In this document: positions 2,708 through 63,085 of the stretch, piece by piece
Layout of the letters: every line of letters starts with the position of its first letter
Position numbering within the stretch: position 1 is the first letter of the stretch
Assembly (NCBI GenBank): GCA_951406725.2
Contig: OX597821.1
Location: forward strand, 33,728,001-33,792,000
DNA: 64,000 nt
Source: Octopus vulgaris
Taxonomy: Eukaryota
Direction of reading: 5' to 3'
The notes under the pieces: model-generated
Seen by the model: only the letters and a program-made list of their open reading frames with translations
Told to the model about the DNA's origin: nothing
The model's database searches: none
Position numbers and translations under genes: made by a program

Positions 2708-2907
2708 ATTGGTTCCAAATTCTGGTACAAGGCCAGCAATTCCAGGGGAAGGGATAAGTTGATTACATTGACCCTACTTATTTTATCGACCTCGAGAGAA
2801 TGAAAGGCAAAGTCAACCCTGGCAGAATTTGAACACAATTGCAGAGACGGATGAAATGCTGCTTAGTATTTTGCCTGGTATGCTAACAATTCTGGGAGCA
2901 TGCTGCC

Positions 2908-2951
<44 letters not shown>

Positions 2952-3700
2952 CCTTTTTATTATAGGCACAAGGCCTGAAATTTTGATGGCAGGGCCAGTC
3001 AATTAGATCAACCCCTGTACGCAACTGGTAACTTAATTTACTGACCCTGAAAAGATGAAAGGCAAAGTCAACCTTGGCGGAATTTGAACTCTGAATGTAC
3101 AGATGAACTAAATGTCGCTAAGCATTTTGCCCGCCATGCTAACGGTTCTGCCAGCTTGCTACCTTAGATAATAATAACAATAATCCTTTTTACTATAGGT
3201 ACAAGGCCTGAAATTTGGAGAAAGGGGATAGTCGATGACATTAACCCCAGCACTTAACTGTTACTTATTTTATCAACCTGAAAGGATGAAAGGCAAAGTC
3301 AACCTTGGCAGAGAGAAAGACAAAATGCCGCTTAGCATTTTGCCCACTGAGGTAATGATTCTGCCAGCTCACTGCCTTAATAATAATAATAATAGTAATA
3401 ATAATCCTTTCTACTATAGGCAAAAGACTTGAAATTTGGGGGAGGGGGATTAGTCAATTACATCGATCTCAGTACATAACTGGTACTTAACTTCATTGAC
3501 CCCAAAAGGATGGAAGGCAAAGTTGACCTTGGTGGAATTTGAACTCGGAATGTAGTGTCAGATGAAATAGTACTAAGCATTTTGCCTGATGCGCTAATGA
3601 TTTTGCCAGCTTCCTGCTTAATAATAATAAAAATGATAATAATAATAATGATAATACTAATCTTTTCTACTACAGGCACAAGGCCTGAAATTTGGAGTTG
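2708..3700 (-). mobile_element. Head-to-tail array of 4-5 family B SINEs separated by (AAT)n
   Basis: Repeated unit 'aataat-ccttt.tactataggcacaaggcctgaaattt...gatgaaaggcaaagtcaacc...ctgccagct', all in the same orientation. Confidence 0.85.
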
Positions 3701-7253: not shown

Positions 7254-8979
7254 TCTGGTATTTGCCAAACTTGTGTAAAATAATATTAATCAGTGACTAA
7301 TTTGTTTTAGTTCTAATTAGATTTTTACAATTGTCTGGATCAACTATGTGAAGACTAACTTCAAATATATTTACAATCACCACCTCTCTCTTTACTCTTT
7401 TACTTGTTTCAGTCATGCTGCGGCCATGCTGGAGCACCACCTTTAGTCAAACAAATCGACTCCAGGACTTATTCTTTGTAAGCCTAGTACTTAATCTATC
7501 GGTTTCTCTTTTGCCAAACTGCTAAGTTACGGAGATGTAAACACCAACATCGGTTGTCAAGCGAATTTGGAAGGACAAACACACACATATATAGATATAT
7601 ACATATATACGACAGGCTTCTTTCAGTTACCGTTTACCAAATCCACTCACAAGGCTTTGAGGCTATAGTAGAAGACACTTGCCCAAGGTGCCACGCAGTG
7701 GGACTGAACCCTGAACCATGTGGTTCATAAGCAAGCTACTTACCATGCAGCCACTCCAGCACCTCTGTTCATCATTCACTATATTTATTGTTATCCCCAC
7801 TCCCAGCCTTCTGTCACTCTCCAGTATACAAAGTTTAAATTTTTTAGTTACCTAGAAATTATGTTAAAAAACTGCCGTTCAAACCGAAAAGATCAGAACT
7901 CTGACCCTCAGTTATCTCCCCTTCCCAGTCCAGACGGTTTCCAAAAATTATTCAAAATAAATATGACAAGATACATCCAACCATATTTTAATATATTTGT
8001 TTTTATATATTTTTGGTACGTTTTTTTTTTTTCCGTGTTAGCATGATTTAGATAATCTTAATATGAGATATTTGCATATAAATATTATGTAAATTGGATA
8101 TTTGCATCGATTATTATTAAGGCAGATGCTGTTACTGTTGTCACTGTTAAAACGACATTTCTAACTTCCATTAATGAGTTTTAATGATAAAATTTGATGA
8201 AAATTAATTTGATCAAATTATCAAAATATTCTGAGATTGTGTGTCATCAATGGTACTTATGTGCATGATAGTGTGTGTGTATGTGGTCATATGTGAGTAT
8301 GCATGTGTGATAATGAGTGTGTGGCAATGTATATGCATGTATATATGTGTGTGGGAGTAAATAAGTATGTGTAGTTGTGAGTGTATGTGTATGTGTGTAC
8401 TTTGCCCTGTGTGTGTATGTGCTGTAATTTGTGTGTGGCACTGTGCTTATGTGTGTATGTGTGTGTGTGTGCATGCACGACAATGTGTATGCGTGTACGT
8501 GTGTGCTATGTCCTTGGCAAGATCTCTTGTTGCATTTCTCTGGCAGCAGAAACGGTAAATAATGGCTGTGTTGACATGCCAATGGTTGCAGCGATGTGGG
8601 TGTAGGGGCAGCGGTATTCACTTGTGGTAGTGGTGGTGGTAGTAGTAGAAGTAGTAGTATTTGTAGACATGGTGGTATTAGTGGTTGTGGTGGTGATAGT
8701 AGTAATATTGTAGTTACTAAAAGGTAGCTAACTGGCAGAAACGTTAGCACGCTGGGTGAAATGCTTAGCGGTATTTCATCTGTCTTTGTGTTCTGAGTTC
8801 AAATTCCGCCAAGGTCAACTTTGCCTTTCATCCTTTTGGGGTCGATAAATTAAATACCAGTTGCATATTGGGTTCGATCTAATCGACTGGCCCCCTCACA
8901 AAAAATTTCAGGCCTTGTGCCTAGAGTAGAAAAGAATATTGTAGTTATTATAATTTTGAAGGAATAAAAACAGCAACAT

Positions 8980-15010: not shown

Positions 15011-16882
15011 ATAACGCGCTACACACCTTCCTTCCAAGCACTGCTGTAAACAGCAGAAGTGAGCTAGAACGTTAAAACGTAGTGTGCATTCACAGCAGAG
15101 TTCAAAGTCAATCTGTGTCAAGTGGCTTCATTCTGCATGCATTAGCTTCGTTACTATGGCAACAGTCATCAGACCTTGTGTGTGTATAAAGCAGCAAGCT
15201 GGCAGAAACGTTAGCACACAGGGCGAAATGCTTAGCAGTATTCGTCTGCTGTTATGTTCTGAGTTCAAATTCCGCCGCGGTCGACTTTGCCTTTCATCCT
15301 TTCGGGGTCGATAAATTAAGTACCAGTTATGCACTGGGGTTGATGTAATCGATTTAATCCCTTTGTCTGTCCTTGTTTGTCCCCTCTATGTTTAGCCCCT
15401 TGTGAGCAATAAAGAAATAAGACCTTGTGTGTGTATGTATATATGTGTGTGCATGTATATATGTCTGTGTGTATATATGTATGTGTGTGTATAAAAAATG
15501 TGTGTACAAATAGATGTACAACTGCAATGGTCAAGTTTAGCACTCCATGTAGAGTGTCATAGTCCAGTCTGCTTCCAGTATAGTGGTTAAGCAACTGCTG
15601 TACTTAGTTGTATTACTTGTAATAGTATACAGAACAATCATATGAGAAATTATGATAAACACAAGTTTATATTAATTGTTCCCTACATGTGTTTAATAAT
15701 TTTGGTTGTTTGGAACTCTGCATTGGATTTGTGGAGGCACATGGCCTAGTGGTTAGAGCAGCAGACTCACGGTCGAGGGATCGCGGGTTCGAATCTCAGA
15801 CCAGGCAATGTGCGTGTTTATGAGCGAAACACCTAAGCTCCATGCACCCCCGGCAGAAGGTAATGTGAAACTTCTGCTGATTCTTTCGCTACAACTTTCT
15901 TTCACTCTTTCCTCCTGCATCTTGCAGCTCACCTGCGACGGACCAGCGTCCTGTCCGGGTGGGGAAACCTATACGCCAAGAAACCGAGAAACCGGCCCTT
16001 ATGAGCCGGGAATGGCTCGAGAAGGAACAAACAACAATTGGATGTGCCAAGTGCTGTTTGATGCTTAACAACAACAACGGATCATCAAAGAACACTAAGT
16101 TTTCAGTAACATAATTGAATAAAATGTTCCCTTGATGATCTGCAGCTGATAAAACTTCCAATTACACTCGGAAACATCCAGGGCAGTGTTCCAAACAAAT
16201 ACAATAGTGAAATGTGTGTCAGAACAAATATTATAAGCCTGTACTAGTAATTTCTTTTCTTTGTGTGTATGTGTGTATGTGTTTTGCTGGTGCCTATCAG
16301 TGAAAAGACTAAAATAAACTTATATATTTGAACATAAATACCTTGTGGTATTTATTGTGCCGGAGCTGTCCAGATAGTAATCCCTTGTAACACTTAACAT
16401 CAGAAATGCAGTCAACCAGTGATTGATCGATCCCATTGGGACCTGTAACTATTTACATTATTCACAAAATACAAGACACGGCAAATAACTGCCAAGAAAT
16501 ATTATCACTGTTGTTTGGCACTTGGCAATTTCAGATCAAATTAGCACAGTTTTGAGACAAGTGAATCAATCAGCTTCGTGGTGGTGGTAATGCTATGCAT
16601 GTGTCTCTTCTTTTTTAGTGTATACCGTATATACTTCCTTACTTTCTTCATTTTATTTTATGTTTTAATCATTTCATTAAATATAAACACCCATACTTTA
16701 TGTCTGTCTTTGTATTATCCCCTTCAACCTTTGCCCTTGTGGCAAATAAATGAAATCATCATTGTTATTAGTAGTAGTAATTTATTATTATTAGTAGTAG
16801 TTATAATTTAACCTTTAGCATTTAAACTGACCATATCAGAGCCCAATATCCTACCCGTTTTTATGTTCAAATTAGTCTCAAG

Positions 16883-18307: not shown

Positions 18308-20571
18308 ATGCGACACACATTTTGCACATTTTGTACGTATTATGTTTCTGTGTAATCTTTTTGTTTTAGTTATTGAGCTGTGGCCATGCATACATACATA
18401 TATATATTATGGGCTTCTTCTGGTTTCCTTCTACCAAATCCACTCATAAGGCTTTGGTCGGCGCGAGGCTACAGTAAAAGACACTTGCTCAAGGTGTCAC
18501 GCAGTGGACTGAACCCACAACTATGTGTTTTGGAAGTAAGATTCTTACCACACAGCCATGTCTGCGTCTTTTTTATGGTTTTTCTTTTTTACTTTTATTA
18601 TTATTTTTTAAAGTCTGGTACTTATTCTATTGGGCTTTTTTGCTGAACCACTAAGTTACAAACCAGTACCAGTTGTCAAGTGTTGGAGAAATGAGTGACA
18701 GACACATACACATAAACACACACACATACACATGTATATTTCGGTCTTCTACACAGTTCCATCTACCAAATTTAATCACAAGGCATTGGTTGACCTTGGG
18801 CTATAGTAGAAGACACTTGCCCAAGGTGTTGTGCAATGGGATTGAACCCAAAACTGTGGTTGCAAAACAAGCATTTTTTGTTGTTTTTTACTTAAAAGAT
18901 ACTCTTATATTGGTTTCAGCCTTTGACTGTGGCCATGCTGGAGCTCTGATATTAAGTGTTTAGTTATATCAGCACTAGGGTAAAGATTAACGACCTCTTT
19001 TACCATGACCGTGGGATTGCACCTAGAAAGTTCCCCTCCTAAGCACAAGTTCAGACAAGATTGCATATGGAAGACCAGTTGTCGCCCATGCATACCAGCC
19101 TCCTCTCACCATATTATCCAAGGGAAAGGCAAAGGGGCCGATACAGCTTGGCACCAGTGACCTCACAACTCATTTCTTCAGCTGAGTGAACTGGGGCTAC
19201 GTGAAATAAAGTGCTTTGCTCAAGAACACAACACACAGCCCAGTACAGGCATTGAACTCACTACCTTATGATGGTGAGCCTGATGCTCTTTAACAATTGA
19301 TCAATGCACCTTCACACACACACACAAAGAGTAAAGAACCCCTTTGGTCATGAATGACCATGGGATTGCACCTAGAAAGTTACCCCCTGAGGCACAAGTC
19401 TGGGCAAGGTTGTATATGGAAGACCAGCAGCTGCCCATGCATACCTATTTCTTTATTACCCACAAGGGGCTAAACATAGAGGAGACAAACAAGGCCAGTA
19501 ATAGGTATTAGGTCGATTACATTGACCCCAGTGCGTAACTGGTACTCATTTAATCGACCCCGAAAAGATGAAAGCAAAGTCGACCTCGGCGGAATTTGAA
19601 CTCAACGTAACGGCAGACGAAGTACCGCTAAGCATTTCGCCCGGCGTGCTAACGATTCTGCCAGCTCACTGCCCATGCATACCACCCTTCCCTCATCATC
19701 CCACCGATGTTATCCAAGAGTAAGGCAAAGGGACCGATACAGCTTGGTACCAGTGATGTTGCAACTCATTTCTACAGCTGAGTTTACTGGAGTAGCATGA
19801 AATAAAGTGTCTTGCTCAAGAAAACACATAGCCAAGTCCTGCAATTGAACTCACTACTTCATGATGGTGAGCTTGATGCTCTAACCACTGAGTCATGCAC
19901 TCAGGTATATCAACACTAGCATTCAGTCTGGTTTTATTTTACCAATTTCTATTTATCAAGTCATTAAGAACTATATAACAGACACTAATTTGGAGGAAAA
20001 TTAGATGCGAGAAATTTTCAGTTGATTAAATTCTTCAATTTAGTTTTGATTAATGAATTGCTTGTTCCTGTAATAACTGTTTAGAATGTTGTAGCAGTAC
20101 CGAATGATGCGGAGTGGTCAGGGTACTATCTATTGTGCATTAGTACTGTTGCTGCTGCTGCCAGTACTGCTACTGCTATTAGTGGTGGTGGTGGTGGTGG
20201 TGGTGGTGGTGGCAGTATTGGCCAAGGTTGCTGTATTTGGAGCATCATTGCTGCAGTGGAGTCACATGGCTTAGTGGTTAGTGTCGGACTCATGATTGTA
20301 AAATTGTGGTTTCGATTCCTGGACTGGGTGACACATTGTGTTGTTGACGAAAGCATTTCATTTCATGTTGCTCCAGTCCACTCAGCTGGCAAAAAAGAAA
20401 ATCAGTAACCCTGTGATGGACCGGCATCCCATCTGGAATCTAAATTTCATGGAAACCAGGAAACTGACCCCTTATGAGTCAGCGTGACTTGAGAACGTAA
20501 CTTGACTACTTGCTTTACATCATTGCTACTGCTACTACTACTACAACTATTACTACCAGTATTAGCTAGGG

Positions 20572-20866: not shown

Positions 20867-20914
<48 letters not shown>

Positions 20915-21139
20915 AGGCAGCAAGCTGATAGAATTGTTATTGTGCCAAGCAAAATACTGAGGGGCATTTCATCTGTCTTGATGTTCTGAGGTCAAATTCT
21001 GCTAAGGTTGACATAGCTTTACATCCTTTACAAAAGGATGTAAATAAGTACCAGTTGAGCACTGAGTCGATGTAGTTTATTCGCCTTTTCCCCACTTTAA
21101 GACCTTATGCTTATGGCAGGAACAACAACAACAACAACA

Positions 21140-26770: not shown

Positions 26771-26997
26771 CGGAGCTGGCAGAATCGTTAGCACGCCAGG
26801 CGAAATGCGTAGCCGTATTTCGTCTGTCGTTACGTTGTGAGTTCAAATTCCGCCGAGGTGGACTTTGCCTTTCATCCTTTCGGGGTCGATAAATTAAGTA
26901 CCAGTTACGCACTGGGGTCGATGTAATCGACTTAATACCTATGTCTGTCCTTGTTTGTCCCCTCTGTGTTTAGCCCCTTGTGGGTAATAAAGAAATA
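26771..26997 (+). mobile_element. SINE family B, young subfamily (tRNA-like head, conserved 'gcctttcatcctttcggggtcgataaa' core resembling the Nin/Sauria domain, LINE-like tail)
   Basis: B-box-like gagttcaaattcc; 12-bp TSD ggtactgggggt. Near-identical copies at 15188-15419, 19446-19668, 43718-43977, 47347-47550, 53514-53733 and 54390-54615. Confidence 0.85.
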
Positions 26998-43335: not shown

Positions 43336-43372
<37 letters not shown>

Positions 43373-44158
43373 GTCGTCACAATTGCCATCATAATACTAA
43401 TAATAATGATGATAATAATAATAATAATAATAATAATAATATAAGGCAGCAAGTTGGCAGAATTATTTGCATGCCGGACAAAATGCTTAGTGGTGTTTCA
43501 TCTGTTGCTATGTTTGGAGTTCAAATTCTGCTGAGGTCGACATTGCTTTTTATCCTTTCAGGGTTGATAAAATAAGTACCAGTTAAACACTGGAAGTGAT
43601 GTAATCGACTGATTCCCTCCCCAACATTGCAGTCCTTGAAATTATTATTATTATTATTATGTGAAGGGCTGGTAGAATCATTAGCACACTTGATGAAATG
43701 CTTAGCGGTATTTTGCTAAGATGGCGAGCTATAGGTGCCGAGCTATAGGCGGCGAGCTGGCAGAAACGTTAGCACGCGGGGCGAAATGCTTTGCGGTACT
43801 TCGTCTGCGTTACGTTGTGAGTTTAAATTCCGCCGAGGTCGACTTTGCCTTTCATCCTTTCGGGGTCGATAAATTAAGTACCAGTTACGCACTGGGGTCG
43901 ATGTAATCGACTTAATACCTATGTCTGTCCTTGTTTGTCCCCTCTGTGTTTAGCCCCTTGTGGGTAATAAAGAAATAGGTATTTTGCTTATTGCTATATT
44001 CTGAGTTCAAATTCCACCAAAGTCGACTTTACTTTTCATCCATTTGGGCTCGATAAATTAAGTACCAGTGAAACACTGGGGTTGATGTAATCAACTAGTT
44101 CTCTCCCCCAAAATTTCAGGTGTTGTGCCTTTAGTAGAAAAGATTATTATTATTATTA

Positions 44159-44690: not shown

Positions 44691-47600
44691 TTTTTTTGTA
44701 TATAGTACTCTTAATCTTTTACTTGTTTCAGTCATTTGACTGTGGACATGCTGGAGCACCGCCTTTAGTCGAGCAATTCGACCCCAGGACTTATTCTTTG
44801 TAAGCCTAGGACTTATTCTATCAGTCTCTTAGGTCGAACCGCTAAGTTACGGGGACGTAAACACACCAGCATCGATTGTCAAGCGATGTTGGGAGGACAA
44901 ATACATACACACACATACATTTATATACATGTGTACGATGGGCTTCTTTCAGTTTCCGTCTACCAAATCCACTCACAAGGCTTTGGTCGGCCCGAGGCTA
45001 TAGTAGAAGACACTTGTCCAAGGTGCCACGCAGTGGGACTGAACCCAGAACCATGTGGTTGGTAAGCAAGCTACTTACCACACAACCACTCCTGTGCCTA
45101 TGGTTTGAAGTTCTCAGTATACTTGTCAGAGGGGTTAATGCAATGACAAAGAGAGTAACAGAGAGAGAGATTCTCCCTGGAAAGTGCCCCCGTATATCTT
45201 TACGTTTCCTAGTGATTCATTTGCCCATGTCAGTTCTACTTCTCACACTCTCATTGCTTTTTCCAAAAAGTTGTTTATCTCCTCATCAAATCCAAGCACC
45301 CTCAGACACTCCAAGAGCCACCTGTGTGGTACATTGTTATAAGCCTTCCTGTAATCTATCCATCCAATGGCTAAGGTTGTTGGGTACATTACACAAAGGA
45401 AGATAGGATGGAAATCACTGCTATAGAACTGTGTTATCCAATGTGTCCTTCCTCTTTTTAAGAACTATGTGACACGAGAAGATTTAGTTGCTATTTTTAG
45501 CAAGTCTAATGACCTCAAACGACCTCCCTATAGAATCTTGGATTGAAGTGTGAAGTGGGGTGGCTATTGTTGCTGTAAGTCAGTTCATCTTAAAGTAGAC
45601 CAATGATATACCTTTAAAATATATGACAGAGAGAAATCTAGTACAGGAGATTTGGCTGCCATGTTTAGCATGTTGTTGCTTATCCCTGGGTCAACACTGA
45701 TTGAGAAGACCTACTATCAAAACCATTCCAGCCATGACCATCCTGTCTTTTTTTTGTTTGAGAAATTCTTACTTAATGAGCCATTCTTTTCTTTTAAGAT
45801 GGTACAATGTGCTTTGAAGGAGATTCAGATGTTCATCATCATCATCATCGTCGTTTAACATCCACTTTCCATGCTAGCATGGTTGGACGGTTTGACTGTG
45901 GGCTGGCAAACCAGATGGCTGCACCAAGATCCAGTCTTGATCTGGCAGAGTTTCTACAGCTGGATGCCCTTCCTAATGCCAACCACTCCAAGAGTGTAGT
46001 GGGTGCTTTTACGTGCCACCAGCACAGGGGCCAGTCAGGTGGTACTGGCAACGACTTCGCTTGAATTTTTACACATGGGCCAGTCATGCGGTACTGGCAA
46101 CGACCTCGCTCGAATTTTTTTAGAAAATCAAATGTCCACATATAGACTCTTCCAATGATTTATATCAAATGACTATATAGAGGCTTCTTTGGTGAAATAG
46201 ACACCGAGTTCAATGCTAACCTGAGAATGTGTGTGTGTGTATGTGTGCATGAATATAGCACTTAAAGATGACTGGAAAAGTTACTAAGTGAAAATTACTA
46301 AAGATGCTGGCATACAGTATGAGATTTCCAATCCTGAAAAGGTCACATACACAGTATATTATTGATTGTTTTCTTCCTGAAATTATTGTCTAAGTTAATT
46401 ATCGGTGCTGCTACAGTAAAGGATTTTTTTAAAAACCAGATTAGAGAGGAAAAAGAAAAATGAGCAATGTTCTTCTTTATTAGCCACAAGGACAAGACAG
46501 ACAGTTATTAAAGACTGATAGTAATTAAATATATATATGTGTACACACATACACACGCACACACACACACGCACAAACACATGCACTCACACACATATAT
46601 GTATGTATATATTTAAAAGGATTATGACACAAAAAGAAGAAAAAGGAAATAAAAAGAATAAAGAAGAACAACAAAATCTTTGTGACACAACTTTAATTAA
46701 AGACCAGAAGTAAATTAAATTGATAATTAGAAAACAGGAAAAAATGTCATTCTCCTCCTCATATTCAATACTGCCACCCACACCACCACTGCCGTCACCA
46801 CCACCACCACCACCACTAGCTGCAGCAGTATGACTATTATTATCCTATCATCATAACTACAGCGAGTGTTACCACCATTATTAACTCCCGCTTAACAACT
46901 GTTTTCCATGTTGCTAAGTGTTATTTTTTTGAAATTTATTTTATACATCTAATTTTTGTACACAACAGCATCTCTGGTTACAGGTTTCCAATACAGCAAT
47001 CATTGGTTTGCAGCAACGACAATGGTAAGAGCGACATGGGAGTGTCCATGTAATTCAGGCTGAACAAATACCACAAGAGGTATTTTTGTTTTGAAAGCAC
47101 CAGCTTATTGGATTTCTCACAAATCGTTATATCTTTCCATGAAAGATATAACTATCAACTCACTGTTTAAATATTAATGAAGCTATAAATAACCCTTTCT
47201 ATTATATGCATGGGCCCTGAAATTTGTGGGGGGGGAGCTGGTCAATTACAATGGTACTTATTTCATTGATCCCAAAAGGATGAAAGGTAAAGCTGACCTT
47301 GATAGAATTTGAACTCACCGTGTAAACAGCCAAAAGAAATACTGTTTAAGGCAGCAAGCTGGCAGAAACATTAGCACGCCGGGTGAAATGCGTAGCCGTA
47401 TTTCGTCTGCCGTTACGTTCTGAGTTCAAATTCCGTCACGGTCGACTTTGCCTTTCATCCTTTCAGGGTCGATAAATTAAGTACCAGTTACGCACTGGGG
47501 GCGATGTAATCAACTTAATACCTATGTCTGCCCTTGTTTGTCCCTTCTATGCATACCATTCTCCTCTCTCCATGCTCACCGATGATATCCAAGAGAAAGG

Positions 47601-53325: not shown

Positions 53326-54351
53326 ATAATAATAATAATAATAATAATCCTTTCTACTATAGGCACAAGAACTGAAATTTTGGGGAGGGGACTAGTCGGT
53401 TATATTGACCCCAGTGTTTCACTGGTACCTAATTTATCAACCCCCGAAAGGATGAAAGGCAAAATTAACTTCAGCAGAATTTGAACTCAGAATGCAGCAA
53501 CAGGTGGAATACCTATTTCTTTACTGCCCACAAGGGGCTAAACACAGAGAGGACAAAAAAGGGCAGACAAACGGATTAAGTCGATTACATCGAGCCCAGA
53601 GCGTAACTGGTACTTAATTTATCGACCCCGAAAGGATGAAAGGCAAAGTCGGCCTCGGCGGAATTTGAACTCAGAAGTAATGGCAGACGAAATACGGCTA
53701 CATATTTCGCCCAGCGTGCTAACGTTTCTGCCACCACTAAGCATTTCATCCAGTGTGCTAACAGTTCTGCCAGCTTGCCGCCTTCATAACAACAACAACA
53801 ATAATAATAATAATCCTTTCTACCATAGGTACAAGGCCTGAAACTTTGGGGGAGGGGGCTAGTTGATTACTTCGATCCAGGGGATGAACTGGTACTTATT
53901 TTATCAGCCCCTAAAGGATGAACGGCAAAGTCAATTTCAGCAGAATTTGAACTTTGGGGGAAAAAAGACAGACAAAATGCTTAGCAGACAAAGTGCTGCT
54001 AAGCATTTTGTCTGGCATGCTAATGATTCTGCCAGCTGACTGCCTTATTAATAATAATAATCCTTTCTACTGGAGGCACAAGGCCCTAAATTTGGGAGGT
54101 GGGAAGGGGACTAGTTGATTACATTGCCCCCCAGTGTTTCACTGGTACTTAATTTATCGATCCCAAAAGGATGAAAGGTAAAGTTGACCTCGGTGGAATT
54201 TGAACTCAGAACATAGCAGCAGATGAAATACCATTGCACCCAGTGTGCTAACGATTCTGCCAGCTTGCTGCCTTCTTGATAATGATGATAATAATAATAA
54301 TAATAATAATGCATTGATGGCATGCACTGCTCTCACTCAATAATGATGATG

Positions 54352-54393
<42 letters not shown>

Positions 54394-54782
54394 TTTTTTT
54401 ATTTCTTTATTACCCACAGGGGACTAAACATAGAGAGGACAAACAAGGGGATTAAGTCGATTATATCGACCCCTGTGCGTAACTGGTACTTATTTAATTA
54501 ACCCTGAAAGGATGAAAGGCAAAGTCGACCTCGGCGGAATTTGAACTCAGAATGTAACGGCAGATGAAATACAGCTAGGCATTTCGTCTGGCGTGCTAAC
54601 GATTCTGCCAGCTCAATAATAATAATAATAATAATGGTTTCAAATTTTTGCACATGGTCAGCAAGTTTAGTGAAATTTGTAAGTTGATTACATCGATCCC
54701 ACTGCTCCGTTGATACTTATTTTTTGACCCTGAAAGGATGAAAGGCAAAGTTGACCTCAGTGCAATTTGAACTCGGAACATA
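53326..54782 (-). mobile_element. Head-to-tail array of ~6 family B SINEs separated by (AAT)n
   Basis: Same unit and polarity as 2708-3700; includes a nested young copy at 53514-53733. Confidence 0.85.
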
Positions 54783-54796
54783 AAGTGATACTAATA

Positions 54797-54833
<37 letters not shown>

Positions 54834-54858
54834 TGATGATGATGATGATGATAATATT

Positions 54859-55682
54859 AGTCAAGATGAAGAGCACGATTCGATTGTATGATATTTTATT
54901 AATTGAAAAATATTTCAACAGTACGTCTGTCTTTGTCAAGTTCGAAATGAACAAGAGAGGTAAGCCCTGTTCATTGTGCAACAACATGAGTGAAGTGAAT
55001 TATATCAGAAATCATAACAGAAATGTTATGATTTATATAGAAGGTGGAACATTTAAAGATTCCCATGTACGCTGCAGAATGCACGAAACACAACTTAATT
55101 TATGTTGGTTGTACAACAGAACAATTAAACAAAAGGTTTAATGGGCACAGATTCAACGTCAGGCACAATAACAGTAGTTCGACAGAACTTGCTGAACATT
55201 TCGTTTCAAGCAGCTGCAATTTTGAAGAAGACTTGAAAGTACATATTCTCAGAAAATATTCTGAATCTGCTTCACTTTCACTTCTCAGAATGTATGAGGA
55301 GAAATATGTTTGCTGGTTATTAACATCATGCCCTGGAGGAATGAATAAGATGGCAGGAGAATATCATCAAATTTATACAAAACTGTTTGATTAAATATCC
55401 TTTTTTCTATCTTTTACTTTCCTTTTTTTTCTGTCGTCTTCTTTTTACTGTTTTTTTGTCTTTTTCTTTTTGTCTGTTATAAAATTGTAACTTAAAAACT
55501 GATGATGTCATTCCGTCAACATGTGGACGCTGGTTGCTCTCGTTCATACTTTACGTTTAAATTTCTGTAATTTTGAATTTTTACCACTTCTTATTTTGAA
55601 CTTGAGAAAGACAGACGTACTAATGAAATATTGTTCAGCTAATAAAATATCTTATAATCAAATCGTGCTCTTCGTCTTGACT
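54859..55682 (+). mobile_element. Penelope-like element fragment: frameshifted GIY-YIG endonuclease flanked by ~95-bp inverted repeats
   Basis: Joining two frames gives 'KPCSLC...GGTFKDSHV / YAAECTKHNLIYVGCTTEQLNKRFNGHR...ELAEHF...YEEKY...PGGMN'. Arms 54859-54955 and ~55587-55682 are diverged reverse complements. CTGATGA at 55499-55505 in the 3' region. Confidence 0.8.
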
Positions 55683-56020
55683 GTTTACCTTTGTGAAGAG
55701 TTATGTCAATCCTTTTAAAATAACAATAATAATAATAATAATAATCAATTCTTTTTTATTGGCCACAAGGGCTGACACGCATGATTACATAAAGGGACAA
55801 GACAGGACGAAAGGTTACAAAGGGTTTTGCCGTTTTTAAAAACATCGAGTAAAAATCTTTATAACAACTTATAAAATTCAACAATGAAAAACTCCCAAAA
55901 GGGGGAGACGTCTCGAAAGGTTCCTGGTGGAAAAAACCCTACAAAAGCCAACGGGAGCCTGGTCTAAAAAGGGGGTGTAGAGAGTCCCCTTTCTTCTCCT
56001 TTTGTATTACCTTTTTGAAA

Positions 56021-58357
56021 TCACAGGCGAAACCTGAGAACTGGTCCATTTATACAGGCCAGTCTCGCACAATTCACCCACCTGTCATAAAACTTGCTAT
56101 CGGACAGCACTTTCCTCTCTAACCTCATCTTCCTTTTCAAGTGAAACTTGAAAAAGTTGATGAGGCCTTGACCAAAGAGGAAAGTGTCTGTCTTTAGCCC
56201 TTTCAAACGAGTCCACCACACCACCTCTTTCGCCACAGCCACTAGGCACAAGAAAACGGCCTCGCCCTCCTTGTTAAAGGAGGTCGGCGGGGCAATCTTC
56301 ACTATGGATTCGGCCGATAGTCGGATCCGTCCTACACGTGACAGTAGCTGTTCGACATAAACCCATATTTCAGCAATACTCGGGCACTGGACGAGTGCAT
56401 GCAGAACGGTTTCGTCGTCCTGGCAACACCTCGGGCAGGCCCGGCTGACGGCACTTCCGTGCCGGTAGAGTTTATCCCGAACAGGCAGAGCCCCTCGGTA
56501 GCACTGCCAAGCGAGAGACCTCTGGAAATTATCCATCGGCCCCGGCCCGAAAGTCCTCCCGAACAGACCGCTCAGTTCGTCGTCTTCAACGCCTAGAGTT
56601 TCCCCGAGAACGTCGTCGCATTTTTCCTCCACTAACCCTCTATAGAACGCTAGAGTGGAGCTGTAACCGATCGCATTGCCCGCCTGGCGGAGGGCGGAGA
56701 GAGCTTGACGGCACTCGAGGTGCCAAGCGCCCTTTCTCGGTCTACGTTTGATCCAGGTCTGCAGCTCCGTCAAAGAGACGAGCTGCGGAAAATCGCGTCT
56801 GACAAAAGACGACCACACCTGTTCACCGTCTAGGAAGCGCTTGAGATGCCGCAGCCTGAGCGCATGTCTGCGCAACAGCAACCACGGCATTCCAAGGCCT
56901 CCGTTCAGCGGTCGTTGACAGCAGATGGATTGCCTGACCAGTGGCACCTGACCCTTCCACAAAAAGTCGAAGAGCAGACGTACCAGCTTGGCCAACCAGC
57001 GGTCGGGACAAGGGACAACGGTCAAGCGGTAATAGATGACGGATGCGATGTACGCATTCGCCACCTCCGCTCGACCTTTCAGGGACAGCTTCCTCTCGGC
57101 CCATTTCTGGGTGAGACGTGCCACCCTGCTCGTCACCTCTTCCCAGTTCTTATCCACCTGGAGGTCCGGACCGAACCAGACCCCGAGCAGTTTAACGGGT
57201 CCGTCTGTCCAGCGCCCTACGACGCTGTTGGACGGCATGGGCTTGCCTCTCCAGGTGCCCAGTTGCAAGCCCACAGACTTTTCCGCGTTAATCTTTGCTC
57301 CTGTCACCGCTTCGTACTGGTTTAGCGTCTCGCCAATCAGGCCAATGTGCCTGTGGCTCGACACCACCACGGTGACGTCGTCGGCATAGGCAGACACGCT
57401 GTTTCCGCCTCCTAGATCGCGCGGGATACCCCTCAAAGCCTCCAACTTGCGCAGTAATGGCTCGAGAGTCAAAATGTACAAGAGGGAGGAGAGAGGGCAT
57501 CCTTGGCGGACCGAACGCGAGATGTCGAACGGTTCCGAAAGGTGACCGTTCACCCGTATCACCGAGCAGATGTTGCTGTATAAAGCAGCGATCCACCCGC
57601 GGAAGACTGGACCGAAGCCGGCTGCCCTGAGGACAGCTGCCAGGTACCGATGGTCGACTCTATCGAAGGCTTTACTCTGATCCAAGTTGATCAAAACCCC
57701 ACCCGCGCCAGCGTCGTTACCCACCCTCTCTATGATGTAGCGCATGAGATGGAGGTTGTCGTGTATCGACCTGGTCGGCACGGCGCATGTCTGCGTCTTG
57801 CCGACCAGCTTGTCCACGACAAGCGCCAATCTCTTGGCTAGCACCTTGGCCAAAATCTTCAACTCTGCATTGAGCAGAGTGATGGGCCGGAAATTCCCTA
57901 TAACGTCCCCCTTGTTTGGGTCCTTCTTTAGCAAAGCCACCACCCCTCGACAGACAAAAGCAGGAATTCTCCCGTTTTGCTGCCAGTTGCAGTAGACGTT
58001 TGCCAACAGGTCCGCAAACAAGTCTGGCATTGAAAAGTAAAGCTCGTAGGGCAGACCATCCAAACCCGGCGATCTACCTCTCGTGCAACTCTTCATCGCT
58101 TCCTGTACTTCCCAGGCAGATATCGGTCCTTCGCAGCACTCTGCCTCGCTGTCCGAGAGTTGCGGCAGTCCGTCCAGGTACACACCGAAGTCTGTACCGT
58201 TGGTGTCCGTTCCACCGCTCGTCCCAAACAGTTGAGCAAAGTGCCGCTGAAGCACCGTACACATCTGCTTCGGTTGGGTAACCCGCGCCCGTTCTGGTCC
58301 ACCAAAGACCGAATGGTTGCTCTGTTGCCTCGCTTCGCCTCCGCCACGCGGGCCCAT
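56021..58357 (-). CDS. LINE ORF2 C-terminal half: reverse transcriptase and C-terminal zinc finger (homology begins ~58285)
   Basis: Motifs RSPGLDGLPYE, FRPITLLNAELKILAK, LINLDQSKAFDRVDH, VRQGCPLS, AYADD, KLLGV, GGLG, and CPRC..DETVLHALVQC. Confidence 0.95.
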   Translation of the reverse strand: MGPRGGGEARQQSNHSVFGGPERARVTQPKQMCTVLQRHFAQLFGTSGGTDTNGTDFGVYLDGLPQLSDSEAECCEGPISAWEVQEAMKSCTRGRSPGLDGLPYELYFSMPDLFADLLANVYCNWQQNGRIPAFVCRGVVALLKKDPNKGDVIGNFRPITLLNAELKILAKVLAKRLALVVDKLVGKTQTCAVPTRSIHDNLHLMRYIIERVGNDAGAGGVLINLDQSKAFDRVDHRYLAAVLRAAGFGPVFRGWIAALYSNICSVIRVNGHLSEPFDISRSVRQGCPLSSLLYILTLEPLLRKLEALRGIPRDLGGGNSVSAYADDVTVVVSSHRHIGLIGETLNQYEAVTGAKINAEKSVGLQLGTWRGKPMPSNSVVGRWTDGPVKLLGVWFGPDLQVDKNWEEVTSRVARLTQKWAERKLSLKGRAEVANAYIASVIYYRLTVVPCPDRWLAKLVRLLFDFLWKGQVPLVRQSICCQRPLNGGLGMPWLLLRRHALRLRHLKRFLDGEQVWSSFVRRDFPQLVSLTELQTWIKRRPRKGAWHLECRQALSALRQAGNAIGYSSTLAFYRGLVEEKCDDVLGETLGVEDDELSGLFGRTFGPGPMDNFQRSLAWQCYRGALPVRDKLYRHGSAVSRACPRCCQDDETVLHALVQCPSIAEIWVYVEQLLSRVGRIRLSAESIVKIAPPTSFNKEGEAVFLCLVAVAKEVVWWTRLKGLKTDTFLFGQGLINFFKFHLKRKMRLERKVLSDSKFYDRWVNCARLACINGPVLRFRL

Positions 58358-59454
58358 CGAGCGGCTCTAGTCCCCTCCCCGCTTAGCGAGCGTGCCTTAG
58401 CTCTGACAACGCAGCCCTCGTGTTTGGCGTCGAAGTGTTGGTCGAGGGCCAACCTTGCCGCCAACACGTCGGTCGCGATGCCAGTGTCAAGAGCCTCGTC
58501 TAGTTTCTTAACTAAATCCCGCTCTCTCTTCCTACGTTCAATAGCTAGAGTCTTACTATACCTAATCGACTCTACTCTAATTGCTCTCTTGAGGGCAAAC
58601 CACCAGTTGTTGTTGATGATTGCCCCCGTGAGCGCCCGCTTAACTAGTAAACTAATCCGGTCTCTGTAAGCTTTGCACGCCGTTAACGACGCGTTCAGCT
58701 TCCAGTAGCCGGGTCCCTGTCTATGTAGCCTATCTAAGTCGACCGTACAGATCACTAATTTGTGGTCCGTATATTCGACTAGGTGGAATTGTGGACACCC
58801 TACGCTGTCCTTATCCGCTGGCCTACAAAACACTCTATCTAAGTACGATCTAGACGACCCGATGCGGTTTGTCCAAGTCCACATTGGCACATTCGGGTTG
58901 TCTAGTCGAAACCTGTCGGACAGCTGAAAGCGGCCGAGTAGGTTGGCGAGGCTCTTGCACCCTCCCCCTCTCCTATCAGACGCTCCCCTGCCCACCCGAT
59001 CGAAACGTTCGTCTAAGACAGCGTTCCAATCCCCAACTAGCACTAGAGTGCGTGACGTTCCCAGGAAAACTTCCAGACGTTTGAAATAATCCGACTGCCC
59101 TGCTCCTGTCGGAGCGTAGGCAGCCAGCAGTCTGAAAGCACCGCCGTCACTACCGTCGACGTCGAGGACCACCAACTTACCTTCCGGATCCAAGAAGACT
59201 GTCCTTATTTTCAGGTCCAGGCCCTTCCGAAACAACACCGCAGTACCACCACCGCCCGCTCCCGGCCGACACGGAGATAGAAATATCTCGTATCCGCCGA
59301 AAAGGGCTGCGAGTTCCTGCGGGTCGGAGAGCCTGGTTTCACTGATGGCTGCTACATCCACATCATGAAACCTCAGGTCGTTTAACAGGTGACCCTGTTT
59401 CCAAGGTGACCCGAGGCCTCTCACATTCAAGCAACCGATTCTAAGATTTGCCAT
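58093..59454 (-). CDS. LINE ORF2 N-terminal half: apurinic-like (APE) endonuclease plus linker; homology ends at ~58285 (frameshift)
   Basis: Motifs LNVRGL, ISETR, YAPT, LVGDWNAV, SYLDRVF, TDHKLV, and GPGYWKLNASL (typical of L1/Tx1). Confidence 0.92.
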   Translation of the reverse strand: MANLRIGCLNVRGLGSPWKQGHLLNDLRFHDVDVAAISETRLSDPQELAALFGGYEIFLSPCRPGAGGGGTAVLFRKGLDLKIRTVFLDPEGKLVVLDVDGSDGGAFRLLAAYAPTGAGQSDYFKRLEVFLGTSRTLVLVGDWNAVLDERFDRVGRGASDRRGGGCKSLANLLGRFQLSDRFRLDNPNVPMWTWTNRIGSSRSYLDRVFCRPADKDSVGCPQFHLVEYTDHKLVICTVDLDRLHRQGPGYWKLNASLTACKAYRDRISLLVKRALTGAIINNNWWFALKRAIRVESIRYSKTLAIERRKRERDLVKKLDEALDTGIATDVLAARLALDQHFDAKHEGCVVRAKARSLSGEGTRAARWARVAEAKRGNRATIRSLVDQNGRGLPNRSRCVRCFSGTLLNCLGRAVERTPTVQTSVCTWTDCRNSRTARQSAAKDRYLPGKYRKR

Positions 59455-59494
59455 GTTTCAAAAGTTAGGGGAAAAAAAAAGGAGAAAAAAGGCT

Positions 59495-61000
59495 CTACTT
59501 ACTGTTGTTGGTGGTGGGGGTGGCTCCCTTGTGCTTTTGCACGGGTGCTTCCACAATGTTTTTGTAAAGTTTCTTCGAGAAACTTTTCCCTAGCGATCCC
59601 ACATCGTTAGGGAATATTTGTTTGATTTCATCATATGTTTTTGCATTTATTTTTATTGTGAGAATGTGTGCTGGTGGTGTGTTTTGTGTTGGTATGATGA
59701 AATCGGTTATATTTGTACTAGTTTTGTTTTTTAAGTACTCCACTAGTTTTTGGTTCTTTGTGTTTATTGATGTAATTGTGTCTGTGTGTGTTTGTGTGTG
59801 TGGCAGTGGCAGTAGTGGTGTCGAAAGTGTTGTTGTTGTTTGTTGTTGTGAGTGTGTGTTGTTGTTGTTGTTGTTGTTGATGTTGGGAAGCACTATTTGT
59901 TCGTGCTTCCCCTGTAAATCTTTTTGTTTCTTCCTCCTTTTCTTCTTTGGAGGCACTATACTCCATTCTCCTTTGTTGGAATCAGAGCTCGCACAATCCG
60001 ACTCTTCATCCGGCAAAGGAATGGTTGAGGGGTCTGCTTCAGTAGCAGGACGAAAAGTTTCTGGTTCCACCGGTATCGGTGGTGCCGCTGCTCCTGTTAC
60101 TGTTGATGTCGCTGCTGTCGACCTTCGAGGTACTGGTGTCGGTGTTGGTTTGGTGGTGGTTGTCGGTGTTGGTTTGGTGGTGGTTGTTGTTGTTGGAGGT
60201 GGTGTTGTTCGTCTTGGTGCTGGTGTTGGTGATGGTGTTGGTGGTGTGGCAGCCTTTGGTTTTTCTTGCTGTTTTTGTTGTTTCTGTTGTTGTTGCTTGT
60301 GTTGTTGTTGTTGTTGTTGTTGTTGTTGCTGCTGCCTCTTGCTATACTCCTCCATTCTCTTTTTTTGAATGGGGCAGTCCCTTTTTAGGTGGCTTTCGCT
60401 ACTGCAGAGGAAACATTTTGGCTTTCGCCCCTCTACAATAACATTTAGCCTGGTCCCATCCAGCAAGATGACAAAGTCAGGTATGGCATTGATGTTTTCC
60501 TGCTGGATCTGTACCAGCAGTTGAATACCCATGCCTGACCAGTTCTTTTCTCGTACCCTCCGAACATTCAGAATAGTGGCAGTGTCCTCTATGCCATAGA
60601 GGACAGCCGCCACTAGCCATGAGATTTTCTGTTCGGGGGGTATTGTGCTTATAGTTATTTTTTGTACCTTACGCCCGAGGTACGTCGGGACGAAGAACAA
60701 ATGTTCATTTTGCAAGGGCGAAATGGCGTTCGCCCTTGCAAGCTCCTCTGTTGGGAAGCGAACCTCCACGGTTCCAAATCGCTTCCCTCTTGTCACATAG
60801 CTCTTCTGGCCCCAAATGGGCTTCAGAGCCATCTCCAACTGTTGTGGTGTGGCGTTAAACAATCTTTTAGTTTTCTTTTCGAAGACTTTATAAAAGATTG
60901 TTCTTTTGCTTGTCTCTTGTGTGAGTTGTTGAGGTGTGTTGAGGAAAACACTGTTCCCCTCCTTTCTCAACAAATCTTGTGCCATTTTTATGTCCTCCAT
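59495..61000 (-). CDS. LINE ORF1p (RNA-binding/chaperone) with CX2CX4HX4C zinc knuckle; true start may be upstream at 61360
   Basis: CFLCSSESHLKRDC knuckle, RRM-like 'RFGTVEVRF', NLS-like PPKKKRRKK, polyQ, Pro/Thr-rich and polyN low-complexity tail; directly upstream of the APE ORF. Confidence 0.85.
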   Translation of the reverse strand: MEDIKMAQDLLRKEGNSVFLNTPQQLTQETSKRTIFYKVFEKKTKRLFNATPQQLEMALKPIWGQKSYVTRGKRFGTVEVRFPTEELARANAISPLQNEHLFFVPTYLGRKVQKITISTIPPEQKISWLVAAVLYGIEDTATILNVRRVREKNWSGMGIQLLVQIQQENINAIPDFVILLDGTRLNVIVEGRKPKCFLCSSESHLKRDCPIQKKRMEEYSKRQQQQQQQQQQQHKQQQQKQQKQQEKPKAATPPTPSPTPAPRRTTPPPTTTTTTKPTPTTTTKPTPTPVPRRSTAATSTVTGAAAPPIPVEPETFRPATEADPSTIPLPDEESDCASSDSNKGEWSIVPPKKKRRKKQKDLQGKHEQIVLPNINNNNNNNTHSQQQTTTTLSTPLLPLPHTQTHTDTITSINTKNQKLVEYLKNKTSTNITDFIIPTQNTPPAHILTIKINAKTYDEIKQIFPNDVGSLGKSFSKKLYKNIVEAPVQKHKGATPTTNNSK

Positions 61001-61612
61001 TGTAATTTCTACATCTTCCGAAATTTGCTTCGCAGCAGAAGCAAAATCGTTAGAAGCTTTTACAGTTTTTTGTTGGTTCTTGTCTGTGTTTGTGTCTGTT
61101 ATAATTTTCTTTACCTCCCCCTTCGGTACAGCATCACTTGTTGAAGGCAGAGGGGGAAATCAAGAGTGACGTCGAACGCGACGTCCTGGCATGCATTCTC
61201 CTTTTGAACCGAGCGCGTGCTCTCCGGTTCGGAAGGAGGAGCTTTGTTGCCTTTTACGGCCTGAAATGGGTTGTACGTAACCCGTGACGTTATTTTTTTT
61301 TGTTCTTGTAGGGGGTGTTGCAAGAAGGAGGGAAGAGCCAGCAGCTCGTTTCAGTGCCATTTTGTAATGTGTGTGTGCAAAAAATGTCAATTTCAAAAGG
61401 ATAGACAGTAATTTCACCCCGAATGGGGCAAAATTTCGCCCAACCGACGAGCTCCGCAAGAAGCCGGTCGGTTTGGCTACAAAAATATTTAAAAATATTC
61501 AAACTTATCAAATGAATTCCAATGAAATTGGTGTCAAATTCACGGAGCTGATTCACGTACGTCCATCGGCGTCGGAAAGAATAATAATAATAATAATAAT
61601 AATAATTACAAT

Positions 61613-62313
61613 AATCTTTTCTAATCTAGGCACAAGGCCCAAAATTTTTTTGGGAGGAATTAAGTTGACTAGATCAACCCCAGTGCGCAACTAGTACTTA
61701 ATTTATTTATCCCAAAAGGATGAAAGGTAAAGTCGACCTCGGCAGAATTTGAATAATTATAATAATCCTTCCTACTATAGGCACAAGGCCTTGAATTTGG
61801 AGGGAGAGGTCAGTCAATTATATCGACCCCTGTATGCAACTGGTACTTAATTTATTGACCCTGAAAGGATGAAAGGCAAAGTTGACCTCAGCAGAATTTG
61901 AATAATAATAATAATCCTTCCTACTATAGGCACAAGGCCTTGAATTTGGGGGAAGAGGCCAGTCAATTAGATCGACCCCTATATGCAACTGGTACTTAAT
62001 TTATTGACCCCGAAAGGATGAAAGGTAAAGTTGACCTCAGATTAATTTGAACTTGGAACATAAAGACAGATGAAATGCTGCAAATACTGATAATAATAAC
62101 GAAGATGATGATAATGTTGATAATAATTATAATAATAATCCTTTGTACTATTGGGACAAGGCCTGAAATTTGCGAGGGTGGGGTAAGTCGATCACATTGA
62201 TTTCAGTGCTCATCTGGGACTTATTGACCCTGAAAGAATGAAAGGCAAAGCTGACCTCAGTGTAATTTGAACCCAGAACGTAAAGACAGATGGAATGCCG
62301 CTAAGTACTTCGC
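61613..62313 (-). mobile_element. Head-to-tail array of 4 family B SINEs adjoining the LINE 5' end
   Basis: Same unit and polarity as the other arrays; (AAT)n spacers. Confidence 0.85.
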
Positions 62314-62314
62314 T

Positions 62315-63085
62315 CAGCAGATGAGGAATGGAGTCAGTGTGTTCCATTGGATGTGCAACATCAGTGCATCAGTGTGCATGTACAACAAAGCACAAATGTA
62401 TTCTAAGAAAAGTTGGACATAAGAAGAAACGAATGCAGCATGCAAGAGAGAAGACTATGTTGGTTTAGACATATGATCATCATCATCGTTTAACGTCCGC
62501 TTTCCATGCTAGCATGGGTTGGACGATTTTGACTGAAGGCTGGCAAACCAGATGGCTGCACCAGGCTCCAGTCCTGATCTGGCAGAGTTTCTACAGCTGG
62601 ATGCCCTTCCTAACGCCAACCACTCCGAGAGTGTAGTGGGTGTTTTTTACGTGCCACCGGCACGGGGGCCAGTCAGGCGGCACTGGCAACGACCTCACTC
62701 GAATCTTTTTACACGTGCCACCAGCACAGATGCCAGTGAAGTAACGTTGGTAACGATCACATTCAAATGGAGCCCTTTTACGTGCCACAGGTACGGAAGC
62801 CAGTTGGCTGCTCTGGCAACGATCACGCTCGGATGGTGCTCTTGGCACCCTACTAGCACAGGCATAAGTGCCAGTAAGGCAATGATGATTCATGATACAT
62901 ATGAATAAAAAACAGCTGTATAAAGAAGTGTTAGTCACTGAAAGTGGATGGTACCTGTGGAAGAGGGAGACCCAGGAAGACATGGAATGAAGTGGTGAGA
63001 ACCGATGTAGGGATGCTGGGGCTTATAAAGGAAATGACAATGAACCAAGGTGTCTGGTGATAGGTTCTAGAAGCACTGGGTGTTC
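62315..63085 (+). mobile_element. Decayed RTE-type LINE 3' portion interrupted by a family A element
   Basis: WMCNIS..EKLDI..MQERRLCWF.H, then after the 62477-62882 insertion VDGTCGRGRPRKTWNEVV..D. Confidence 0.65.

What the first reader, a model, noticed from the sequence alone, without database searches (positions are those of the whole stretch)
53326..62313. Self-amplifying, polarised retroelement 'landing pads' built on (AAT)n
Seen: about ten family B SINEs plus the LINE lie head-to-tail on the same (-) strand, each separated by (AAT)n; the same pattern recurs at 2708-3700. Each SINE both starts after and ends in ATT repeats. Inference: every insertion creates a new target repeat for the same endonuclease, a positive-feedback loop that could co-expand AAT microsatellites and SINE arrays.
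Basis: partly seen in the sequence, partly recalled or inferred. Interest (0 to 1): 0.7.

Follow-up and report, generated by a model that had tools for sequence, protein, structure and literature searches.

The report
Octopus jumping genes stacking on (ATT)n
In this octopus-type DNA, short mobile elements sit nose-to-tail in ATT repeats, mostly as separate insertions rather than copies of their neighbours, likely because each insertion duplicates its own landing site as human Alu/L1 clusters do, and their tails share a predicted hairpin with an L1-type retrotransposon that likely mobilises them.

Summary
Largely real, but the loop itself is a known principle. Ten SINE copies and a 5.8-kb L1-clade (Tx1-like) LINE share the minus strand in 53326-62315. 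In the whole window 15 of 16 close neighbours are co-oriented, against 5 of 12 distant ones. Ten of 11 adjacent pairs are 69-82% identical (background 73%), so they are separate insertions; one unit is a tandem duplicate.

Corrections: a Penelope-like piece interrupts the run, and 'family B' has three tails. B1a/B1b sit in (ATT)n. The younger B2 has no ATT tail, is followed by GGTA in 4 of 6 complete copies, has 10-17-bp target duplications in 4, and twice nested at one site in a B1 head. So 'same endonuclease, same target' fails for B2.

Target regeneration with orientation bias is published for human Alu/L1 (CLIQUEs), and serial tandem insertion for crocodilian SINEU. The new part is a CUUGU-loop hairpin 16-22 nt from the 3' end, with compensatory stem changes, shared by B1, B2 and the LINE. 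It suggests a stringent L1/Tx1-SINE partnership whose tail swaps switched targets. This rests on one window and one LINE copy.

The parts
53326..53346 (-). (ATT)n run at the 3' end of the array
53345..53786 (-). B1a SINE, split by the nested B2; TTGTTATG recurs at both flanks (probable target duplication)
53514..53733 (-). B2 SINE nested in the head of the B1a copy at the GGTA site; 3-nt duplication GGT; no ATT flanks
53811..54048 (-). B1a SINE, full length
54058..54277 (-). B1a SINE, full length
54278..54399 (.). two ATT/ATC runs around a 28-bp unique spacer, plus the A-run of the next B2
54400..54614 (-). B2 SINE lying in (ATT)n, the only one of 7 B2 copies that does
54633..54790 (-). B1b SINE, 5'-truncated
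54860..55700 (+). Penelope-like fragment: GIY-YIG ORF piece (55041-55394) between ~96-bp inverted ends, 86% identical
   Evidence: (PF01541, E 5.7e-5, 23.8 bits against cut-off 22.6)
55742..61579 (-). L1-clade, Tx1-like LINE: ORF1 with zinc knuckle and one in-frame stop; ORF2 APE-RT-zf-RVT with one frameshift near 58290; (ATT)n on both sides
55757..55777 (-). LINE 3' hairpin, GCC-CTTGT-GGC, followed by AATAAA
61612..61753 (-). B1a SINE, 5'-truncated at the B-box-like motif
61763..61911 (-). 149-bp tandem duplicate: junction like the 61612 unit, body like the 61912 copy
61912..62090 (-). B1a SINE, 5'-truncated
62136..62315 (-). B1a SINE, 5'-truncated; unique DNA upstream
2705..3705 (-). second array: one B1b and four B1a copies separated by ATT runs
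43443..44146 (+). third array: two B1 copies; the second has an 18-nt target duplication and a nested B2 (43718-43977, 11-nt duplication starting GGTA)
15188..15419 (+). solo B2, 17-nt target duplication that does not start with GGTA
19446..19673 (-). solo B2, 10-nt duplication starting GGTA
26773..26997 (+). solo B2, 12-nt duplication starting GGTA
8721..8938 (+). solo B1a in a degenerate GTA/ATT repeat, 13-nt duplication, no ATT tail of its own
20914..21125 (+). solo old B1 flanked by (ACT)n on both sides
16728..16795 (+). orphan LINE-type 3' end (same hairpin plus AATAAA) followed by ATT-like repeats
46470..46498 (-). second orphan LINE-type 3' end, not followed by ATT repeats

Best explanation
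The run is a stack of mostly separate, same-strand SINE and LINE insertions in ATT repeats, likely built by target-primed reverse transcription driven by L1/Tx1-type enzymes that are predicted to recognise a shared 3' hairpin. Shown: the copies are dispersed retroposons with a fixed 3' end, variable 5' truncation and target duplications. Neighbours are no closer to each other than to distant copies. One unit arose by local duplication. B2 uses a different target. Inferred: the endonuclease nicks the AAT-reading strand, and the RNA's 3' end (…GGAUU for B1a) pairs with the freed AAT end, which fixes orientation. Inferred, weaker: B1a, B1b and B2 are one head and core with tails taken from different members of an octopod L1/Tx1 radiation. 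The partner of B2 prefers RGY^GGTA, which happens to occur in the B head, so B2 nests there. The Penelope-like piece is an unrelated passenger.
For: Orientation 15 of 16 close pairs against 5 of 12 far pairs, and clustering far above random. Adjacent identity 0.69-0.82 in 10 of 11 pairs against 0.730+-0.055 between arrays (n=152). In the tree of 26 copies the only starred sister pair inside an array is 61763/61912; B2 (100/100) and B1b (95/92) group across arrays. The 18-nt duplication at 43662 carries the unique flank of the ATT run. Family A SINEs with (GAT)n tails barely stack: 1 of 12 tails is followed by another copy, against my tally of 12 of 20 B1 tails, Fisher p=0.008. So a triplet tail alone is not enough. 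The LINE has APE, RT and zf-RVT domains, and its closest solved relative is L1 ORF2p (149 bits against 86 for R2). All 6 complete B2 tails score z 3.0-6.3 against the last 100 nt of the LINE. Hairpin on 27 tails: 85% of cells paired, covariation 0.556 against 0.214 shuffled, 0 of 500 shuffles as high, all slid registers lower. The stem reads GGC/GCC in B1, CCC/GGG in B2 and GCC/GGC in the LINE. GGTA follows 4 of 6 complete B2 ends, at a site frequency of 0.003. Precedent for the steps: PMC3215922, PMC4494074, PMC4176376 (passages read).
Against: One window, one LINE copy, and effectively 3-4 arrays. No further loci: two genome-contig scans were empty. B1 primary similarity to the LINE end is patchy: 5 of 21 copies not classed B2 reach z>3, and the one B1 copy run against other LINE windows scored higher there (24) than at the true end (21). 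The B1b tails do not score at all. The LINE tail resembles B2 more than B1, yet the LINE sits in (ATT)n while B2 mostly does not. The hairpin is only 3-4 bp, is the MFE fold in only some copies, and its covariation comes from about 3 lineage-level changes, which the shuffle control over-credits. The smaller test on B2 plus LINE-type ends was weak (17 of 500). 43443 has reverse polarity upstream, and one close pair is head-to-head (47190/47348). An R4/Dong-like fragment is in the window, and Dong elements are listed as TAA-targeting (PMC3812793).
Confidence: 0.65

Rival explanations
1. Same serial stacking, but B1 is driven by an R4/Dong element (TAA-targeting, restriction-like endonuclease) or another triplet-tailed clade. 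Only B2 depends on L1/Tx1, and the LINE landed in the ATT run independently.
For: A decayed RT fragment at 42488-43330 has full-length relatives with RT only and no APE domain. One of them ends in a CCHC and PD..D motif (read by eye; the R4/Dong label is recalled). Dong targets TAA (PMC3812793 passage), and Dong-R4 has 1129 recent insertions in O. vulgaris (PMC13282606, Table 1). B1-to-LINE tail similarity is weak.
Against: B1 shares the CTTGT loop, the paired stem and a similar loop-to-end distance with the LINE and B2. No Dong 3' end was available to compare.
Confidence: 0.17
2. Insertion is only weakly AT-biased; arrays and polarity come from later loss of inverted neighbours and tolerance of insertions in junk-rich spots.
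For: Inverted Alu pairs are depleted by deletion in human (PMC3215922, abstract and passages).
Against: This does not explain junctions landing exactly in ATT runs (12 of 20 against 1.2%), the 18-nt duplication, the lack of stacking in family A, or the surviving head-to-head pair at 47348.
Confidence: 0.08
3. Arrays are old tandem duplications (an incipient SINE-derived satellite) that have since diverged.
For: TRF finds a 149-bp period at 61601-62051. Unit 61763 is a hybrid: 20 of its first 21 nt match the 61612 unit, and 122 of the next 129 nt match 61912.
Against: This holds for 1 of 11 adjacent pairs only. The other units differ in tail subfamily, in 5' truncation point and in nearest relative.
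Confidence: 0.04
4. No special endonuclease preference: the RNA's own 3' bases (AUU repeats for B1, GGUA for B2) pick targets by annealing at sites nicked with low specificity.
For: It explains polarity and the tail-linked target switch equally well; GGTA after B2 could be templated by the RNA.
Against: Family A with (GAT)n tails does not stack. The B1 copy at 8721 has no ATT tail beyond its target duplication. One B2 ends at the same base without GGTA.
Confidence: 0.2

Closest known systems
[quoted passage not shown] 2011, PMC3215922; abstract and passages read)
   Same: Closely spaced SINE/LINE clusters with one-direction bias, explained by target duplications and tails that add new target sites.
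   Different: Here the target is a triplet microsatellite rather than TTTT/AA and poly(A). The bias is stronger in this small sample (1 inverted of 16, against I:D 0.38). Subfamilies differ in target.
Crocodilian SINEU and Tx1-Mar (Kojima 2015, PMC4494074; passages read)
   Same: A SINE inferred to use Tx1 machinery, target-biased, with tandem copies from sequential insertion around a target duplication.
   Different: SINEU has snRNA heads and poly(A) tails, targets a Mariner, and no LINE sharing the SINEU-1 3' end was found. Here the tails do resemble the LINE end.
Microsatellite-targeting non-LTR elements Kibi (TC), Koshi (TTC), Waldo (ACAY), Mino (AC), Dong (TAA) (PMC3812793, PMC4494074; passages read)
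   Same: Insertion into a simple repeat that then flanks both ends.
   Different: An L1/Tx1-type element in (ATT)n is not among those listed in the passages seen; specificity of this LINE is untested (one copy).
Stringent SINE/LINE pairs with a 3' stem-loop: ZfL2/UnaL2, monocot L1 with ZmSINE2/3, Chlamydomonas L1-1 with SINEX-3 (PMC4176376, PMC3747384; passages read)
   Same: Conserved loop on a variable, compensating stem near the 3' end; tail swapping on a shared head and core, as in MetaSINEs (PMC4824008).
   Different: The 2013 review counts only 3 SINEs with L1-clade tails, from plants and an alga. This would be an animal case, with a much shorter stem.
Alu-into-Alu insertion hotspot (Levy et al., PMC2836564; passages read)
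   Same: A younger SINE inserts at one position of an older relative, in sense orientation.
   Different: Here n=2, and the site is GGTA in the head rather than the A-rich linker.

Membership tests
tRNA-derived SINE | short, non-coding, dispersed on both strands | tested here: met
   29 insertions of up to about 260 bp on both strands
tRNA-derived SINE | fixed 3' end, variable 5' truncation, target duplications | tested here: met
tRNA-derived SINE | tRNA-derived head with A and B boxes | tested here: inconclusive
   B-box-like GTTCAAAT seen by eye (motif recalled); ARAGORN found 0 genes, Rfam no tRNA match
CORE/Meta/V/Ceph SINE superfamilies, octopus OR1/OR2 | shared central domain | tested here: inconclusive
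   three short B motifs absent from the supplements searched in two mollusc SINE papers (one file unreadable); OR1/OR2 and Repbase sequences not available
L1 clade non-LTR retrotransposon | ORF1 nucleic-acid binder plus ORF2 with APE, RT and C-terminal zinc motif | tested here: met
   best PDB matches are L1 ORF2p for both domains, though the only other clade among the matches was R2
Tx1 group | RT phylogeny with named Tx1 elements | not testable with these tools
   no named Tx1 reference among the homologues; the label rests on recalled architecture (RRM-like plus CCHC ORF1, ~1150-aa ORF2)
Tx1 group | target specificity (over 20% of copies in one target, criterion of PMC4494074) | tested here: inconclusive
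   1 full copy in (ATT)n; of 2 orphan LINE-type ends, 1 is followed by ATT-like repeats
CLIQUE-like serial cluster | catenated elements with orientation bias | tested here: met
CLIQUE-like serial cluster | insertion regenerates target sites | tested here: met
   18-nt duplication of the ATT run plus flank at 43662; one clear case
CLIQUE-like serial cluster | all members use one endonuclease and target | tested here: not met
   B2 target GGTA against B1 (ATT)n
SINE-derived satellite | units are each other's closest relatives | tested here: not met
   1 of 11 adjacent pairs
Stringent SINE/LINE pair | shared 3' sequence with the LINE (B2) | tested here: met
   6 of 6 complete B2 tails z 3.0-6.3; alignment
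Stringent SINE/LINE pair | shared 3' sequence with the LINE (B1a/B1b) | tested here: inconclusive
   5 of 21 copies not classed B2 reach z>3; within-LINE control not beaten
Stringent SINE/LINE pair | 3' stem-loop with compensatory changes | tested here: met
   with few independent events; 2 of 29 tails (42313, 47190) left out because the loop was not in register
Stringent SINE/LINE pair | stem-loop needed for retrotransposition or bound by ORF2p | not testable with these tools
   needs a cell or binding assay

The most novel reading that the evidence does not exclude
Octopods carry a stringent-type L1/Tx1 radiation that reads a CUUGU hairpin. One SINE chassis has hopped between its members by tail swapping, and each swap changed where the SINE lands: (ATT)n, giving self-seeding polarised arrays, or RGY^GGTA, giving a younger subfamily that parasitises the head of its own ancestors. 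It would be an animal SINE with an L1-clade-derived structured tail, and a natural tail-swap experiment on target choice.
Probability: 0.4. Interest if true: 0.62.

Novelty: new variant of a known kind. Interest (0 to 1): 0.4.

Why it matters
SINEs and LINEs make up about a quarter of the O. vulgaris genome and nearly all recently active SINE families there are unclassified (PMC13282606). A tail-and-target code would assign partners and explain part of the AAT-rich clustering. The feedback loop itself is textbook-level. What a specialist would want is the hairpin: L1-clade elements are thought to rarely donate tails to SINEs (3 cases in PMC3747384), so an animal example with target switching would bear on how stringent recognition was kept or lost in L1.

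Tried and rejected
Pure tandem duplication: rejected except for one unit. One family with one target: rejected. tRNA or Rfam identity of the head: nothing found. More loci: the SINE-core pattern and the ORF2 query found nothing in the bacterial/archaeal genome collection; metagenome and viral contig collections stayed unchecked, and no octopus assembly was on hand. Naming the SINE from supplements: no motif match. One of 8 supplementary files of PMC9115989 was searched for Dong or tail sequences, without result. The repeat library of PMC13282606 is on Zenodo and could not be seen; it may already hold these families. Named Tx1 homologues: none. Other copies of this LINE or of the Penelope piece in the window: none. 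Ten literature searches listed no paper describing octopus SINE arrays on (ATT)n or this hairpin; subscription papers and Repbase Reports are outside that library. No structure or complex prediction was run, as the claim does not depend on one.
Full report
Source. The window is octopod. LINE ORF1 is 75% identical to an Octopus sinensis protein and 57% to an O. bimaculoides one, and ORF2 is 67% identical to an Argonauta protein. The species was not determined.

Map. BLAST and an HMM built from the copies give 38 hits. 31 of them form 29 insertions (two hosts are split); 7 weak hits were left out. Ten insertions lie in the finding, all on the minus strand, as does a 5.8-kb LINE. The LINE has ORF1 with a zinc knuckle and one stop, and ORF2 with APE, RT and zf-RVT and one frameshift. 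Its closest solved relative is L1 ORF2p. Tx1 is my label from recalled architecture and is not tested by phylogeny. Between 54790 and the LINE sits a GIY-YIG fragment with 96-bp inverted ends and its ORF on the plus strand, so the run is not uninterrupted.

Is it more than chance? Yes. 15 of 16 neighbours within 150 bp are co-oriented, against 5 of 12 distant pairs. 15 close SINE pairs were seen against 2.2 expected. 17 of 22 AAT/ATT tracts lie in arrays covering 8% of the window. (ATT)2+ precedes 12 of 20 B1 copies in sense, against 1.2% background; 1 copy has the reverse polarity and 7 have neither. In arrays that upstream run is usually the previous copy's tail, so it is not independent of the clustering. 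Family A SINEs with (GAT)n tails stack in 1 of 12 cases, against my tally of 12 of 20 for B1.

Insertion or duplication? Ten of 11 adjacent pairs are 69-82% identical in head and core, against 73.0+-5.5% between arrays. The tree of 26 copies (2 short fragments, 3658 and 42313, left out; support rough) groups by tail type, not by array. The exception is 61763/61912 (93%). Unit 61763 has the spacer and truncation junction of the 61612 unit (20 of 21 nt) and the body of 61912 (122 of 129 nt), which is the signature of an unequal exchange between neighbours. Direct evidence of serial targeting comes from the array at 43.4 kb: the copy at 43662 is flanked by an 18-nt repeat, (ATT)5 plus the unique ATG that ends the run.

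Family B is three subfamilies on one head and core. B1a and B1b are old (74-89% to the majority, a figure that is tilted towards B2) and end against ATT. B2 is younger (pairwise 90%). All 6 complete B2 copies end at the same base, with no ATT tail. Four are followed by GGTA (site frequency 0.003), one by an A-run in (ATT)n, one by AGAC. Duplications of 17, 10, 12 and 11 nt flank four copies, and of 3 nt a fifth. Two B2 copies sit at the same GGTA site in a B1 head, in sense, at independent loci. Solo B1 copies lie in (ACT)n (20914) and in a degenerate GTA/ATT repeat with a 13-nt duplication and no ATT tail (8721). So much of the '(ATT)n tail' is likely duplicated target, and the preference is looser than (AAT)n.

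Link to the LINE. All 6 complete B2 tails align to the last 100 nt of the LINE (z 3.0-6.3). B1 tails do so in 5 of 21 copies not classed B2, and the B1 copy used as a control scored no better than other LINE windows. What all share is a CTTGT pentamer 16-22 nt from the end, closed by GGC/GCC (B1), CCC/GGG (B2) or GCC/GGC (LINE and an orphan end at 16736). Of 193 CTTGT pentamers in the window, 16 have a 3-bp Watson-Crick stem (about 3 expected), and 13 of those 16 are element ends. On 27 of 29 tails the 4-bp stem is 85% paired with covariation above all 500 shuffles and all slid registers. The caveat is that this reflects about three lineage-level changes, and the B2-plus-LINE-only test was weak (17 of 500). 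An awkward point: the LINE tail is closer to B2, but its target is that of B1. I therefore infer several related drivers rather than this copy's family for all; O. vulgaris has 13 recently active L1-Tx1 families (PMC13282606, Table 1).

Mechanism. Shown: separate retroposition events, polarity, target duplication, one tandem duplicate, two target types. Inferred from established target-primed reverse transcription: a nick on the AAT strand, pairing with the RNA end, orientation fixed, target doubled. Inferred and untested: hairpin recognition by L1/Tx1 ORF2p, and tail swaps switching the target. The main rivals are a Dong-type driver for B1 (a decayed R4/Dong-like fragment lies at 42488-43330) and annealing-only target choice.

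Comparison. Kojima 2015 (PMC4494074) reports tandem SINEU-3 from sequential insertion, and Tx1 families in (TC)n, (TTC)n and (TTCC)n. Grandi and An 2013 (PMC3812793) list microsatellite-targeting elements, including Dong in TAA. Ohshima 2013 (PMC3747384) counts 3 SINEs with L1-clade tails. For these four I saw term-matched passages. I saw parts 1-2 of 3 of PMC13282606; passages of PMC4758252, PMC4824008, PMC5804259, PMC9115989, PMC4176376, PMC2836564 and PMC9004415; and supplement searches for PMC4824008, PMC4758252 and one file of PMC9115989. Ohshima and Okada 1994 (octopus OR1/OR2) and Kojima and Fujiwara 2004 were seen only as citations. These SINEs may already be catalogued in Repbase or in the Zenodo library, which I could not see.

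Verdict. The arrangement is real and mostly as interpreted, but it works like a known system. The tail-target anatomy is the part worth following up: interest 0.4, new variant of a known kind.

Noticed in passing
window 47190-47560: A tailless B2 (plus strand) abuts a 5'-truncated B1 (minus strand) head-to-head near the same head site, and GGTA lies on the opposite strand at its broken end; possibly an inversion.
   Followed up: partly
window 43718-43760: The nested B2 starts with three 14-bp copies of its own 5' end.
   Followed up: no
window 42488-43441: Decayed R4/Dong-like RT fragment, bounded by (CAT)n/(AAT)n and by two B copies pointing away from or against it.
   Followed up: partly
window 54860-55700: Penelope-like GIY-YIG fragment with 96-bp inverted ends; no other copy in the window.
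   Followed up: partly
window 61612 and 61763 junctions (61753, 61902): Truncation falls inside the B-box-like motif, where ATT merges into TTCAAAT, suggesting 5' microhomology with the target.
   Followed up: no
window 4386-4471 and 41882-41929: Weak, uncounted B-like hits are also preceded by (ATT)n in sense.
   Followed up: no
B2 target sites 19446, 26998, 43978, 53513: The RGY^GGTA motif resembles the tRNA D-loop sequence (recalled), so the B2 driver might be a tRNA-gene-targeting element.
   Followed up: no
window 401-785, 27140-27520, 37295-37748, 45833-46120, 62476-62860: Family A SINEs with (GAT)n tails carry internal 49- or 64-bp tandem subrepeats of variable number.
   Followed up: no
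window 5745-5982: A 12/13-bp-unit minisatellite reads as an open frame on both strands.
   Followed up: no
window 59770-60330: LINE ORF1 holds poly-Gln, poly-Thr and poly-Asn tracts encoded by CAA/ACA/AAC repeats.
   Followed up: no
window 15731-15922, 24628-24907, 42110-42310: A third SINE family with a more typical tRNA-like head.
   Followed up: no
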